A stretch of DNA of 64,000 nt from Escherichia coli (lineage in GTDB: Bacteria > Pseudomonadota > Gammaproteobacteria > Enterobacterales > Enterobacteriaceae): NCBI RefSeq assembly GCF_044324785.1, contig NZ_CP172127.1. One strand, given 5' to 3'. The stretch's first letter is position 1. The number at the start of each line of letters is the position of its first letter. A program made the translations under genes and the position numbers. Positions 1,262 through 3,891 of this stretch are shown piece by piece. Under the pieces are notes generated by a model, which was not told the DNA's origin, ran no database searches, and saw nothing but the letters and a program-made list of their open reading frames with translations.

Positions 1262-1331
1262 GAGACCCGGCGGGGGAGAAATCCCTCGCCACCTCTGATG
1301 TGGCAGGCATCCTCAACGCACCCGCACTTAA

Positions 1332-1356
1332 CCCGCTTCGGCGGGTTTTTGTTTTT
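1332..1356 (+). terminator. Intrinsic terminator after hokD
   Basis: Hairpin CCCGC-TTCG-GCGGG followed by TTTTTGTTTTT. Confidence 0.5.
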
Positions 1357-1477: not shown

Positions 1478-1729
1478 ATGATGAACATCGAAGAACTGCG
1501 TAAAATTTTTTGTGAAGATGGCCTCTATGCTGTGTGCGTTGAAAATGGAAATCTTGTTAGTCATTACCGCATTATGTGTTTGCGAAAGAATGGGGCTGCG
1601 TTAATTAATTTTGTGGATGCTCGGGTCACGGACGGATTTATCTTGCGCGAAGGTGAGTTTGTCACTTCATTACAGGCATTGAAAGAGATCGGAATAAAAG
1701 CTGGCTTTTCTGCTTTTTCAGGAGAATAA
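1478..1729 (+). CDS. rem: Rem (prophage protein of unknown function)
   Basis: 83-aa ORF MMNIEELRKIFCEDGLYAV...; position between hokD and ydfU as in Qin. Confidence 0.8.
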   Translation: MMNIEELRKIFCEDGLYAVCVENGNLVSHYRIMCLRKNGAALINFVDARVTDGFILREGEFVTSLQALKEIGIKAGFSAFSGE

Positions 1730-1795
1730 ACTCATCTACAATCTTGCGCGGGGCTGAACTCCCGCTGAGTAACACCGTGCCACCGGAGAAAACCG

Positions 1796-2074
1796 ATGGC
1801 ACGCAACGCAAAATATTACAATTCTGATAATTCGCCCGTTCTTGCCTGCACGCACGGGCGGTATTCTCACGCATTCAAGTCTGAATGGTTCCAGCACCCT
1901 CCATGCACTGCAGAACAGGCCGAATGGCTGATTCATTCTTACCGCAGGCGCGGGTTCGAGGTTAAGAAAGCTCTCAGTCTCGACTATCGGCACTGGATAA
2001 TCTCTGTCAGGCTGCCTTATTCCGAACGCCCACCACGTGCGTCCCGCACTTTCCAGCAACGGATCTGGAGGTAA
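1796..2074 (+). CDS. Hypothetical small protein (unassigned)
   Basis: 92-aa ORF, non-repetitive composition; overlaps ydfU start by ~38 nt in another frame; could also reflect a 5' extension/frameshift of ydfU. Confidence 0.3.
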   Translation: MARNAKYYNSDNSPVLACTHGRYSHAFKSEWFQHPPCTAEQAEWLIHSYRRRGFEVKKALSLDYRHWIISVRLPYSERPPRASRTFQQRIWR

Positions 2075-3125
2075 CGTGCGGGTATTACTTAGACCTGTTC
2101 TGGTGCCTGAGCTTGGGCTGGTGGTCCTTAAGCCGGGCCGTGAATCCATACAGATATTTCATAATCCTCGAGTGCTGGTGGAACCGGAACCAAAAAGCAT
2201 GCGTAATCTGCCATCCGGAGTCGTTCCTGCCGTTCGCCAGCCGCTGGCGGAAGACAAAACATTGCTGCCGTTTTTTAGTAACGAACGGGTGATTCGTGCT
2301 GCTGGCGGCGTTGGCGCATTGTCCGACTGGCTATTACGTCATGTTACATCCTGCCAGTGGCCTAATGGCGATTACCATCACACTGAAACAGTCATTCACC
2401 GTTATGGTACCGGCGCAATGGTGTTGTGCTGGCACTGCGACAACCAACTGCGTGACCAGACATCGGAATCACTGGAGCTGCTTGCTCAACAAAATCTGAC
2501 AGCATGGGTGATTGACGTCATCCGTCACGCAATAAGCGGTACGCAGGAGCGGGAATTATCTTTGGCTGAATTATCCTGGTGGGCGGTCTGCAATCAGGTG
2601 GTGGATGCACTACCTGAGGCTGTATCGCGTCGTTCGCTGGGATTACCAGCGGAAAAAATCTGCTCGGTGTACCGCGAAAGCGACATCGTACCGGGAGAGC
2701 AGACCGCCACCAGCATATTGAAACAACGCACAAAAAATCTTGCACCGTTGCCTTACGCCCACCAGCAACAAAAATCACCACAGGAAAAGACGGTGGTAAG
2801 CATCACCGTTGATCCAGAGTCTCCGGAATCTTTCATGAAGCTGCCTAAACGTCGCCGCTGGGTTAAGGAGAAATACACACGTTGGGTTAAGACACAGCCG
2901 TGTGCTTGCTGCGGTATGCCAGCCGACGATCCGCATCATCTGATTGGTCACGGGCAGGGCGGAATGGGAACAAAAGCACATGATCTCTTTGTGTTGCCTT
3001 TGTGCAGAAAGCATCACAACGAGCTGCATACGGATACAGTGGCATTTGAAGATAAGTATGGCTCCCAACTGGAGCTGATATTTCGTTTTATCGATCGCGC
3101 GCTGGCAATTGGCGTACTGGCGTAA
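2037..3125 (+). CDS. ydfU: YdfU-family protein (DUF968) with C-terminal HNH-like zinc motif
   Basis: 362-aa ORF; C-terminus CACCGMPADDPHHLIGHG...CRKHHNELH resembles HNH/Zn-finger; exact start uncertain (in-frame GTG ~2073 possible). Confidence 0.75.
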   Translation: MRPALSSNGSGGNVRVLLRPVLVPELGLVVLKPGRESIQIFHNPRVLVEPEPKSMRNLPSGVVPAVRQPLAEDKTLLPFFSNERVIRAAGGVGALSDWLLRHVTSCQWPNGDYHHTETVIHRYGTGAMVLCWHCDNQLRDQTSESLELLAQQNLTAWVIDVIRHAISGTQERELSLAELSWWAVCNQVVDALPEAVSRRSLGLPAEKICSVYRESDIVPGEQTATSILKQRTKNLAPLPYAHQQQKSPQEKTVVSITVDPESPESFMKLPKRRRWVKEKYTRWVKTQPCACCGMPADDPHHLIGHGQGGMGTKAHDLFVLPLCRKHHNELHTDTVAFEDKYGSQLELIFRFIDRALAIGVLA

Positions 3126-3138
3126 GTGGAGAACGAGC

Positions 3139-3891
3139 ATGAACCTTGAAGCCTTACCAAAATATTACTCCCCAAAATCTCCAAAATTGAGCGATGACGC
3201 TCCAGCGACAGGCACCGGTTGTTTAACAATTACGGATGTAATGGCAGCGCAGGGGATGGTGCAGTCGAAAGCACCACTTGGGTTGGCCTTATTTCTGGCA
3301 AAAGTTGGTGTTCAGGACCCCCAGTTTGCGATTGAAGGCCTGCTAAATTACGCGATGGCACTGGATAACCCGACATTGAACAAATTGAGTGAAGAAATCC
3401 GGTTACAGATTATTCCTTACCTCGTGAGTTTTGCCTTTGCTGATTACTCCAGGTCTGCGGCAAGTAAGGCTCGCTGTGAGCATTGTTCAGGTACGGGATT
3501 TTATAATGTATTGCGCGAAGTGGTGAAACACTACAGACGCGGGGAATCTGTAATCAAGGAAGAATGGGTGAAGGAACTATGTCAGCATTGCCATGGTAAG
3601 GGCGAAGCCAGCACAGCGTGCAGAGGGTGTAAGGGTAAAGGGATTGTTCTGGATGAAAAAAGAACCCGGTTTCATGGCGTACCGGTATATAAGATTTGTG
3701 GGCGTTGTAATGGAAACCGGTTTAGTCGTTTACCGACCACGCTGGCACGACGTCATGTCCAGAAGCTGGTACCAGACCTGACCGATTATCAGTGGTATAA
3801 GGGGTATGCGGACGTCATTGGTAAACTGGTAACAAAGTGCTGGCAGGAAGAAGCATACGCGGAAGCGCAATTGAGGAAGGTGACAAGATAA
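3139..3891 (+). CDS. quuQ: Late-gene antiterminator Q
   Basis: ORF 3109-3891; start placed at MNLEAL (250 aa); multiple CxxC zinc-finger pairs (CEHCSGTG, CQHCHGKG, CRGCKGKG, CGRCNG) typical of Q-family antiterminators. Confidence 0.85.
   Translation: MNLEALPKYYSPKSPKLSDDAPATGTGCLTITDVMAAQGMVQSKAPLGLALFLAKVGVQDPQFAIEGLLNYAMALDNPTLNKLSEEIRLQIIPYLVSFAFADYSRSAASKARCEHCSGTGFYNVLREVVKHYRRGESVIKEEWVKELCQHCHGKGEASTACRGCKGKGIVLDEKRTRFHGVPVYKICGRCNGNRFSRLPTTLARRHVQKLVPDLTDYQWYKGYADVIGKLVTKCWQEEAYAEAQLRKVTR

What the first reader, a model, noticed from the sequence alone, without database searches (positions are those of the whole stretch)
1796..3125. ydfU region: upstream overlapping ORF and an HNH-like C-terminal zinc motif
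The large ydfU-like ORF ends with CACCGMPADDPHHLIGHGQGGMGTKAHDLFVLPLCRKHHNELH, a Cys pair followed by His/Asn residues reminiscent of HNH nuclease cores. A 92-aa ORF (1796-2074) overlaps its 5' end in another frame. Either there are two genes, or the pair reflects a frameshifted longer ancestral gene or a translationally coupled start. Nuclease-like genes between the TA cassette and Q could function in recombination or anti-defence.
Basis: partly seen in the sequence, partly recalled or inferred. Interest (0 to 1): 0.4.

Follow-up and report, generated by a model that had tools for sequence, protein, structure and literature searches.

The report
Known prophage HNH nuclease plus small gene
This stretch of the E. 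coli Qin prophage holds two ordinary, separate genes: a small conserved phage protein of unknown function, followed one base later by ydfU, whose C-terminus was already published as an HNH-type nuclease domain.

Summary
The window matches the Qin cryptic prophage of E. coli K-12 (4 mismatches in about 5 kb).

**Observation.** Both ORFs exist. The overlap comes from calling ydfU at the first upstream GTG (2037).
- RefSeq and distant homologues start ydfU at GTG 2076 (349 aa).
- The 92-aa ORF stops at 2072-2074, one base before that start. A GGAGG sits in its last codons.
- This junction is identical in 8 diverged loci. GTG 2037 is not conserved.

**The 92-aa ORF is a real gene.**
- dN/dS is 0.16 in its own frame and above 1.3 in the ydfU and antisense-ORF frames.
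- It belongs to phrog_1212.
- 66-aa relatives occur in phages of Salmonella, Klebsiella, Cronobacter, Yersinia and Edwardsiella.
- These usually lie directly upstream of a DNA-junction nuclease gene (YdfU, YbcO, NinG or RusA).
- It is missing from the MG1655 reference annotation.

**The YdfU C-terminus is an HNH/His-Me finger.**
- Pfam DUF968 scores 1.5e-76, and HNHc_6 scores above its cut-off.
- This was published in 2017 (His-Me finger group 7).

**Verdict.** Two translationally coupled genes, not a frameshifted one. Already known; low interest. Nuclease activity and the small protein's role remain untested.

The parts
1783..1787 (+). GGAGA Shine-Dalgarno-like element 8 nt upstream of the ATG of the 92-aa ORF
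   Evidence: Read from the sequence. It is weaker (AGAGA) in some relatives.
1796..2074 (+). Small protein gene (92 aa). It has a variable, disordered N-terminal extension (aa 1-26), a conserved beta-alpha-beta-beta core (aa 28-75) and a conserved C-terminal tail LP..PRPSRTxQQRIWR (aa 73-92). It belongs to phrog_1212 and its function is unknown.
   Evidence: - RefSeq annotates it as WP_012304870.1, 'hypothetical protein'.
- It is not annotated in MG1655 NC_000913.3.
- phrog_1212 match, E 1.7e-35.
- dN/dS is 0.16 overall: 0.46 for the extension, 0.08 for the core and 0.07 for the tail.
- Distant 66-aa homologues at 30-48% identity occur in many phages.
- AF2 model: core pLDDT above 90, ends low.
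2037..2075 (+). Apparent 13-codon 5' extension of ydfU. This is an artefact of longest-ORF calling and is not part of the gene.
   Evidence: GTG 2037 is not conserved; it is GTC or GCC in 6 of 8 loci. Homologues start at residue 1 of the 349-aa form. The ydfU frame over the 92-aa ORF gives dN/dS 2.6.
2067..2078 (+). Coupling junction: GGAGG (2067-2071), TAA stop of the small gene (2072-2074), C (2075), GTG start of ydfU (2076-2078).
   Evidence: The junction is invariant in 8 loci. A 53%-identical YdfU homologue has the equivalent GGAGGGACTGATG junction, where stop and start overlap.
2076..3125 (+). ydfU (349 aa plus stop); homologue of K-12 b1560, with one amino-acid difference (Q209 here, L in MG1655).
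   Evidence: Pfam DUF968 1.5e-76. phrog_96 'HNH endonuclease' matches over the full length, 2.8e-171. dN/dS 0.17.
2076..2540 (+). YdfU N-terminal domain (aa 1-155). No Pfam family matches it. It contains a conserved Cys/His cluster.
   Evidence: No Pfam hit. phrog_11007 matches aa 2-134. AF2 pLDDT is about 80-95.
2352..2444 (+). Conserved Cys/His cluster of the N-terminal domain: C93, H101/H102 (Cys in many homologues), C118-W119-H120-C121-D122-N123. It lies on a predicted hairpin plus helix and is a putative structural zinc site.
   Evidence: C118 is invariant; C93, W119 and D122 are at least 90% conserved. Strands 105-110 and 113-118 and helix 119-125 come from the model. Zinc binding is inferred only.
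2541..2837 (+). YdfU helical middle region (aa 156-225) and low-confidence linker (aa 226-254). This is the first half of the Pfam DUF968 model.
   Evidence: DUF968 profile positions 2-78 match here. pLDDT is below 50 for aa 230-240.
2838..3122 (+). YdfU C-terminal His-Me finger (HNH) domain, aa 255-349.
2898..3029 (+). HNH core motif, aa 275-318: PC276xxC279G, DPH287H288, D303, P308-L-C310, H313H314-N315-E-L-H318, on the predicted beta-beta-alpha element.
   Evidence: C276, D303 and P308 are invariant and H288 is at least 90% conserved in 34 homologues. Strands 285-288 and 306-309 and helix 311-319 come from the model.
1736..2149 (-). 137-aa antisense ORF overlapping the small gene. It is not a gene.
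   Evidence: dN/dS is 1.6 in its frame, and the variable sites fall on codon position 3 of the + strand gene. No credible family match.

Best explanation
The region holds two separate genes of the Q-proximal ('nin') recombination module of the lambdoid cryptic prophage Qin. They are very probably co-transcribed.

Gene 1 (1796-2074) encodes a 92-aa protein of the phage family phrog_1212. It has a small beta-alpha-beta-beta core and a conserved basic/aromatic C-terminal tail. Its function is unknown.

Gene 2 is ydfU (2076-3125, GTG start). Its protein has three parts:
- an N-terminal domain with no assigned family, carrying a putative Cys/His zinc site;
- a helical middle region and a flexible linker;
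- a C-terminal His-Me finger (HNH, beta-beta-alpha-metal) nuclease domain of the DUF968/DUF1364 group.

The stop codon of gene 1 lies one base before the GTG of ydfU, and a GGAGG sits inside gene 1's last codons. I infer that ribosomes finishing gene 1 re-initiate on ydfU (translational coupling).

For function, I infer that YdfU is a zinc-stabilised, divalent-metal-dependent DNA endonuclease acting on recombination or replication intermediates of the phage. In related phages the same slot before rusA/Q is held by NinG/Rap or YbcO, and its closest solved fold is the RecA-dependent nuclease Ref of phage P1.

Shown here:
- gene boundaries;
- purifying selection on both genes;
- the conserved junction;
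- family and fold assignment.

Inferred, not shown:
- coupling;
- zinc binding;
- nuclease activity and substrate;
- any link between the small protein and the nuclease.
For: Identity of the locus:
- The window differs from MG1655 Qin at 4 positions in about 5 kb.
- RefSeq annotates rem, a hypothetical 92-aa protein, ydfU (start equal to window 2076) and ydfT.

Start of ydfU:
- Homologues from a library of 1.8 billion representative proteins align from residue 1 of the 349-aa form.
- GTG 2037 is not conserved, while GGAGGTAACGTG is invariant.

The small gene is real:
- Variable sites by codon position are 20/22/54 and dN/dS is 0.16.
- The core and tail have dN/dS 0.07-0.08.
- phrog_1212 match at 1.7e-35.
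- 522 database relatives, all labelled hypothetical.
- 66-aa relatives occur in Gifsy-2, mEp237, phiES15, PY54, GF-2 and others.

Module behaviour:
- In many E. coli genomes the megablast match begins at window 1779 and ends at 3125, which is exactly the pair.

HNH assignment:
- Pfam DUF968 scores 256.6 bits. HNHc_6 scores 29.5 bits on the C-terminal 96 aa, above its 26.6 cut-off.
- phrog_96 is labelled 'HNH endonuclease'.
- AF2 mean pLDDT is 87, with a beta-beta-alpha element at 285-319.
- hhalign to YbcO gives E 3e-5.
- The motif residues are conserved.

Literature:
- YdfU/DUF968 with YbcO/DUF1364 form His-Me finger group 7 (PMC5714182).
- DUF968 is described as carrying an HNH zinc-finger motif (PMC4118853).

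Context:
- RusA and/or Q follow ydfU in relatives.
- The small-gene family sits directly upstream of NinG, YbcO, RusA or YdfU.
Against: - No biochemical data exist for YdfU or any close relative, so nuclease activity, metal dependence and substrate are inferred from fold and motif.
- Three of the 34 aligned family members lack the HH dyad, so catalysis is not universal in the family.
- A sequence profile of the family finds nothing in the PDB at E <= 1. The link to Ref and YbcO rests on a predicted structure and one hhalign match of moderate probability (73%).
- The spacing between GGAGG and GTG is only 4 nt, and coupling was not measured.
- Qin is a cryptic prophage. A strong Rho-dependent terminator is reported upstream of ydfU (PMC9160355), so the genes may be largely silent in K-12.
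- The small gene's position next to nucleases may reflect conserved nin-region gene order rather than a functional link. In 79 of 80 short-form loci its upstream neighbour (DUF1367) is more constant than its downstream one.
Confidence: 0.8

Rival explanations
1. The two ORFs are the halves of one longer gene. Either an ancestral gene was split by a frameshift in the decaying prophage, or the gene is read through by programmed frameshifting.
For: The ORFs abut, and the mechanical ORF calls overlap by 38 nt. Qin is a decaying prophage.
Against: - The stop/1-nt/start junction is identical in 8 diverged loci, including inducible phages.
- The small protein is a free-standing 66-67-aa gene upstream of unrelated genes (NinG, YbcO, RusA) in many phages.
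- YdfU homologues begin at residue 1, with no ORF92-like N-terminal extension.
- The odd-length database entries are singleton chimeras or deletions.
- Both genes are under purifying selection in their own frames.
Confidence: 0.02
2. The 92-aa ORF is not translated. The 346 nt between rem and ydfU is a leader that carries the Rho-dependent terminator reported upstream of ydfU.
For: - The ORF is not annotated in the MG1655 reference.
- A strong Rho-dependent terminator upstream of ydfU is reported (PMC9160355).
- The stretch 1700-2100 is C-rich relative to G, with GC skew down to -0.24.
Against: - The codon-position pattern, the dN/dS of 0.16 and protein-level conservation at 30-48% identity across genera cannot be explained by an RNA element.
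- PGAP annotates the ORF in other strains, and PHROGs has a family for it.
- The two ideas are compatible: a rut site can lie inside a poorly translated gene.
Confidence: 0.04
3. The YdfU C-terminus is a non-catalytic zinc finger used for DNA binding or regulation, for example a transcription factor of the late-gene region, and not a nuclease.
For: - There is no biochemical proof of cleavage.
- Some family members lack the HH dyad.
- Some phage records label the homologue 'antitermination protein Q', and one family member is called a transcriptional regulator in PMC5714182.
- The N-terminal two-thirds of the protein have no nuclease signature.
Against: - The general-base His (H288), D303 and the helix His residues are conserved in at least 90% of 34 homologues.
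- The best fold matches are active nucleases such as Ref, IscB, Cap5 and McrA.
- The 'Q' label is an annotation error. The real Q (Pfam Antiterm) is the next gene or the next but one.
Confidence: 0.1
4. YdfU, with or without the small protein, is a defence or anti-defence nuclease rather than a recombination enzyme. Examples would be superinfection exclusion or degradation of host or competitor DNA.
For: - HNH domains are common effectors in defence systems; Cap5 and McrA are among the fold matches.
- The gene sits near toxin-antitoxin cassettes in Qin.
- The module is present in 4919 of 5426 complete E. coli genomes.
Against: - There is no PADLOC match for either protein.
- The TA cassettes are not part of the conserved module, since upstream neighbours vary.
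- The conserved neighbours are recombination genes (RusA, Orf/DUF1367, NinG slot) and Q.
Confidence: 0.08

Closest known systems
YbcO / DUF1364 (PF07102; DLP12/phage 82 prophage protein, PDB 3g27)
   Different: YbcO is about 96 aa and consists of the HNH domain only. YdfU carries about 250 extra N-terminal residues. YdfU does not hit the Pfam YbcO model.
Phage P1 Ref (RecA-dependent HNH nuclease; PF16786, PDB 3plw)
   Different: The Pfam score is below the family cut-off (21.8 against 26.9 bits). Ref has a disordered basic N-terminus rather than the folded YdfU N-domain. RecA dependence of YdfU is untested.
Lambda NinG / Rap (PF05766), branch-specific endonuclease
   Same: It occupies the equivalent position in the nin region and is preceded by the same small-protein family in Gifsy-2, SPN3UB, GF-2 and Klebsiella phages. 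It shares the PCxxCG...H motif start.
   Different: There is no family-level similarity: hhalign probability is 7.8% and there is no Pfam NinG hit.
Gram-positive DUF968 proteins described as lambda Orf-like domain plus HNH (Curtis et al. 2014, PMC4118853)
   Same: They belong to the same Pfam family (DUF968) and have the same C-terminal HNH zinc-finger motif.
Lambda NinE and NinF (small nin-region proteins directly upstream of ybcO and ninG)
   Same: The small protein has the same size class and the same position, immediately upstream of the nuclease gene.
   Different: There is no detectable similarity (hhalign probability below 1%) and no Pfam NinE or NinF hit. In Erwinia and Pantoea phages the family coexists with NinF.

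Membership tests
Pfam DUF968 (PF06147) | Score above the curated gathering cut-off over the full model | tested here: met
   256.6 bits against a 27.8 cut-off, profile positions 1-171 of 171.
His-Me finger / HNH superfamily | Beta-beta-alpha-metal fold | tested here: met
His-Me finger / HNH superfamily | Catalytic His at the end of the first strand, and His/Asn/Asp metal ligands on the helix and loop | tested here: met
   H287-H288, D303, H313-H314-N315 and H318 are present. H288 is at least 90% conserved and D303 is invariant in 34 homologues.
His-Me finger / HNH superfamily | Structural zinc site formed by two Cys/His pairs (in the zinc-containing HNH subgroup) | tested here: inconclusive
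   C276 (invariant), C279, C310 and H313/H314 are present and conserved. Actual zinc binding cannot be tested here.
His-Me finger / HNH superfamily | Metal-dependent nucleic-acid cleavage | not testable with these tools
   The papers found give only sequence- and structure-based predictions for YdfU and YbcO, with no biochemical assay.
Pfam HNHc_6 (PF16784) | Score above the gathering cut-off | tested here: inconclusive
   The whole protein scores 26.2 bits, below the 26.6 cut-off. The C-terminal 96 aa alone score 29.5 bits, above it. Only profile positions 123-184 of 204 are matched.
P1 Ref family (RecA_dep_nuc, PF16786) | Score above the gathering cut-off; RecA-dependent cleavage | tested here: not met
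   17.6 and 21.8 bits against a 26.9 cut-off. The fold similarity is real. RecA dependence is not testable here.
YbcO / DUF1364 (PF07102) | Pfam model match | tested here: not met
   No PF07102 hit for YdfU. The relationship is detectable only by hhalign (73%) and by fold, so it is a sister family and not membership.
NinG / Rap (PF05766) | Pfam model match or profile similarity | tested here: not met
   No Pfam hit. hhalign probability is 7.8% over 18 columns.
Lambda Orf (NinB) / YbcN / DUF1367 recombination mediators (as an N-terminal domain) | Profile or fold similarity of the YdfU N-terminal or middle region to Orf | tested here: not met
phrog_1212 (small phage protein, unknown function), for the 92-aa ORF | Full-length profile match | tested here: met
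   E 1.7e-35, with aa 27-92 matching profile positions 1-66 of 66. The Gifsy-2 and YDC107_1 relatives match the same family.
NinE (PF05322) / NinF (PF05810), for the 92-aa ORF | Pfam or profile similarity | tested here: not met
   No Pfam hits. hhalign probability is below 1%.
Split or programmed-frameshift gene | Fused in-frame versions in relatives, and coding conservation across the junction in a single frame | tested here: not met
   The stop codon and 1-nt spacer are invariant. There are no natural fusions. The small gene is independent in other phages.
Known anti-phage defence systems (PADLOC) | Match to a defence-system protein model | tested here: not met
   Nothing below E 0.07.

The most novel reading that the evidence does not exclude
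The phrog_1212 small protein may be a dedicated accessory factor of the nin-region junction nucleases: a regulator, inhibitor, or DNA- or partner-docking subunit. It would be made in fixed ratio with the nuclease through translational coupling and would act through its conserved C-terminal tail (LP..PRPSRTxQQ+IW+). Its ability to sit directly upstream of three different His-Me nuclease families (YdfU, YbcO, NinG) and of RusA would then mark a previously unrecognised two-component recombination nuclease in temperate enterobacterial phages. It is also a gene missing from the E. coli K-12 reference annotation.
Probability: 0.2. Interest if true: 0.45.

Novelty: already known. Interest (0 to 1): 0.15.

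Why it matters
The practical value is limited.

- **Annotation.** ydfU starts at GTG 2076, with no overlap. A conserved 92-aa gene between rem and ydfU is absent from the MG1655 reference record, although PGAP calls it in other strains.
- **YdfU.** It remains a 'y-gene' without experimental function (PMC11551758). The analysis narrows the hypothesis to test: a Ref/YbcO-like HNH nuclease of the phage recombination module. The module is present in about 91% of complete E. coli genomes, often in several copies.
- **The small protein.** Its recurrent placement directly before a junction-nuclease gene gives a cheap, testable lead for a family with no known function.

Tried and rejected
- **Frameshifted or fused gene.** Rejected; see the rival explanations.
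- **Modular N-domain fusions.** Longer 'YdfU' proteins of 400-800 aa looked like new architectures. Their sequences are YdfU N-termini joined to tail-fibre or host-specificity segments, which means prophage deletions or misassemblies.
- **Orf-like N-domain,** as described for Gram-positive DUF968. There is no similarity to lambda NinB, YbcN or DUF1367.
- **Small protein as NinE or NinF.** No similarity.
- **Sequence search of the PDB.** The single sequence and the family profile found nothing useful.
- **NCBIfam.** No model matches either protein.
- **Defence role.** No PADLOC hit.
- **RNA element in the region.** No Rfam match within 1796-3125 at E <= 1.
- **Promoter and terminator scan.** Nothing distinctive was found between rem and ydfU apart from a weak promoter-like site at 1715-1742.
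- **Obligate pairing with YdfU.** A YdfU homologue at 53% identity has the small gene, but homologues at 41%, 38% and 31% identity have unrelated or no upstream small genes.
- **The search for related loci with the broad small-protein alignment.** It failed because no conserved stretch was available. A narrower alignment worked, but it sampled only one closely related clade.
Full report
**Where we are.** The ORF map of the first 6.5 kb reads relB, relE, hokD, rem, a 92-aa ORF, a long ORF, a Q-type antiterminator, then cspF and cspB. Megablast against complete E. coli genomes finds the 1.9-kb stretch at 100% identity, annotated rem / hypothetical protein / ydfU (DUF968) / ydfT. Compared with MG1655 the window has 4 mismatches in about 5 kb. 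One of them changes YdfU (Q209 here, L in MG1655). This is the Qin cryptic prophage. The pair is very common: 4919 of 5426 complete E. coli genomes hold a match, with a median of two places per genome.

**The observation.** Both ORFs are present as described, and the quoted Cys/His motif is in the long ORF, 31 residues before its end. The reported overlap depends on the mechanical ORF call, which starts at the first GTG (2037). Four results place the real start at GTG 2076:
- RefSeq starts ydfU there, giving 349 aa.
- In a search of 1.8 billion representative proteins, full-length relatives down to about 30% identity align from residue 1 of the 349-aa form and have no N-terminal extension.
- The codon at 2037 is GTG only in the window and one close relative. 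It is GTC or GCC in six other loci.
- The ydfU reading frame over the upstream region shows no coding constraint, with dN/dS 2.6.

With this start the small ORF ends at TAA 2072-2074, one base (C) follows, then GTG. GGAGG lies at 2067-2071. The 14-nt string CTGGAGGTAACGTG is identical in eight loci whose small proteins are 75-99% identical. A YdfU relative at 53% identity has the analogous GGAGGGACTGATG, where stop and start overlap.

**Is the 92-aa ORF a gene?** Yes.
- Across eight loci the variable sites fall 20/22/54 on codon positions 1/2/3.
- Median pairwise dN/dS is 0.16 in its frame. It is 1.6 in the frame of the 137-aa antisense ORF and 2.6 and 1.3 in the other sense frames.
- Constraint is uneven: 0.46 in the first 26 codons, 0.08 in the core and 0.07 in the tail.
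- The protein matches phrog_1212 (unknown function) over residues 27-92.
- tblastn finds 66-aa relatives at 30-48% identity in phages of Salmonella (Gifsy-2, SPN3UB), E. coli (mEp237), Cronobacter, Klebsiella, Yersinia (PY54), Edwardsiella, Hafnia and Erwinia.
- A profile search finds 522 proteins, all labelled hypothetical and none with a Pfam domain.
- The AlphaFold model has a confident beta-alpha-beta-beta core (residues 28-75, pLDDT above 90), a disordered N-terminal extension and a low-confidence but highly conserved tail, LP..PRPSRTxQQRIWR.
- The family is unrelated to lambda NinE or NinF.
- The MG1655 reference record leaves this 346-nt interval unannotated.

**What is YdfU?** Pfam gives DUF968 at 1.5e-76 over residues 160-346, with weaker HNHc_6 and RecA_dep_nuc matches at the C-terminus. 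The last 96 residues alone score above the HNHc_6 cut-off. PHROG 96, labelled HNH endonuclease, matches the whole length.

An alignment of 34 full-length homologues (26-80% identity) shows these conserved motif residues:
- C276, D303 and P308 are invariant.
- H288 is nearly invariant.
- The consensus is PCxxCG...DDPHH...KAHDLF..PLCR..H.ELH.

- Cap5, McrA and other HNH enzymes below these.

hhalign against a YbcO-family protein gives E 3e-5. This agrees with the literature. Jablonska et al. 2017 put YdfU/DUF968 and YbcO/DUF1364 together as His-Me finger group 7. Curtis et al. 2014 already noted the HNH zinc-finger motif of DUF968. Kaur and Subramanian 2016 predicted a nuclease function for DUF1364.

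The rest of YdfU is less clear.
- Residues 1-155 have no Pfam family. They carry a conserved cluster (C93, H101/H102 or Cys, C118-W-H-[HC]-D-N) on a predicted hairpin plus helix. I read this as a structural zinc site, by inference only.
- The Orf-like N-domain that Curtis et al. describe for Gram-positive DUF968 proteins is not detectable here.
- Database 'fusions' of the N-domain to other C-termini are chimeras with tail-fibre sequences.

**Context and likely function.** In relatives, ydfU is followed by rusA and Q, or by Q directly. The conserved megablast block in many genomes runs exactly from just upstream of the small gene's ATG to the ydfU stop, so the pair moves as one module.

The small-gene family has these immediate downstream neighbours:

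| Downstream gene | Where seen |
|---|---|
| YdfU | Qin-type loci; a homologue at 53% identity |
| YbcO | mEp237, phiES15, a Klebsiella phage |
| NinG | Gifsy-2, SPN3UB, GF-2, a Klebsiella phage |
| RusA, then YdfU | Citrobacter phage Chris1 |
| An exonuclease | N15-like phage YDC107_1 |

In four other phages the neighbour is different. PY54 has an uncharacterised 175-aa ORF downstream. In Hafnia, Erwinia and Pantoea phages one to three other genes precede NinG.

In 80 IMG/VR loci of one short-form clade, the nearest recognised nuclease gene downstream is NinG in 64, YbcO in 14 and RusA in 2. In most loci it abuts the small gene. The upstream neighbour is DUF1367 in 79 of 80. These loci are closely related, so the counts are not independent.

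More distant YdfU homologues (41%, 38% and 31% identity) lack the small gene. The pairing is therefore a feature of enterobacterial lambdoid nin regions and not of DUF968 as a whole.

Taken together, the best reading is a recombination-module nuclease occupying the NinG/YbcO slot, translationally coupled to a small protein of unknown role. There is no PADLOC match to suggest defence.

**Limits.**
- Nuclease activity, zinc binding, substrate, coupling and any small-protein/nuclease interaction are all inferences.
- Qin is cryptic, and a strong Rho-dependent terminator is reported upstream of ydfU. The small gene's region is C-rich relative to G, which would fit a rut site inside a weakly translated gene.

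**Verdict.** This is an ordinary, already-described prophage gene pair. The HNH reading is right but published, and the frameshift option is wrong. Two small results are new: a gene missing from the K-12 reference annotation, and the recurrent placement of the phrog_1212 protein directly before junction-nuclease genes.

Noticed in passing
window 1796-2074 (MG1655 NC_000913.3 about 1644306-1644584, complement): The conserved 92-aa gene is not annotated in the E. coli K-12 MG1655 reference record, where the interval between rem (b1561) and ydfU (b1560) is empty. PGAP annotates it in other strains as WP_012304870.1.
   Followed up: yes
window 1700-2100: The small-gene region has negative GC skew (C over G, down to -0.24), whereas rem just upstream is strongly G-rich. 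A paper reports one of the strongest Rho-dependent terminators of K-12 'upstream of ydfU' (PMC9160355). The rut site may lie inside the small gene, so translation of that gene could gate transcription into ydfU and Q.
   Followed up: partly
window 2352-2444 (YdfU aa 93-123): A second conserved Cys/His cluster (C93, H101/H102 or Cys, invariant C118, W119, H/C121, D122) lies on a predicted hairpin plus helix in an N-terminal domain with no Pfam family. In PHROGs the domain is a separate family (phrog_11007). It is probably a structural zinc site.
   Followed up: partly
L024-L103 (IMG/VR loci), L004, L005, L018, L020, L023: In the short-form clade the small gene keeps the same upstream neighbour (DUF1367, 79 of 80 loci), while the downstream nuclease switches between NinG (64), YbcO (14) and others. 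This points to a mosaic exchange point at the small gene's 3' end.
   Followed up: partly
proteins P0126, P0146, P0157, P0166, P0190, P0191, P0257; also P0096, P0097: Public databases hold chimeric proteins in which a YdfU N-terminus runs into tail-fibre or host-specificity sequences, or the small protein runs into the YdfU C-terminus or into Q. These look like prophage deletions or assembly errors and could mislead domain-architecture surveys.
   Followed up: yes
L010 (phage Evi, LR597642) 2781-3830; L011 (ON470583) 2501-2779: There are annotation errors in phage records. The YdfU homologue is labelled 'Phage antitermination protein Q' in phage Evi, and the small gene is labelled 'toxin to Rem' in vB_EcoS-689R5.
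   Followed up: no
window 1270-1351 (+): There is a sub-threshold Rfam match to isrK, an Hfq-binding sRNA first described in Salmonella (25.1 bits against a gathering score of 50, E 0.014). It lies just downstream of the hokD stop codon and covers the terminator-like hairpin at 1330-1347.
   Followed up: no
L108 2328-2501 and L106 2153-2497: Distant YdfU homologues (38-41% identity) also have a short upstream gene whose stop abuts or overlaps the ydfU start. These proteins are unrelated to phrog_1212.
   Followed up: partly
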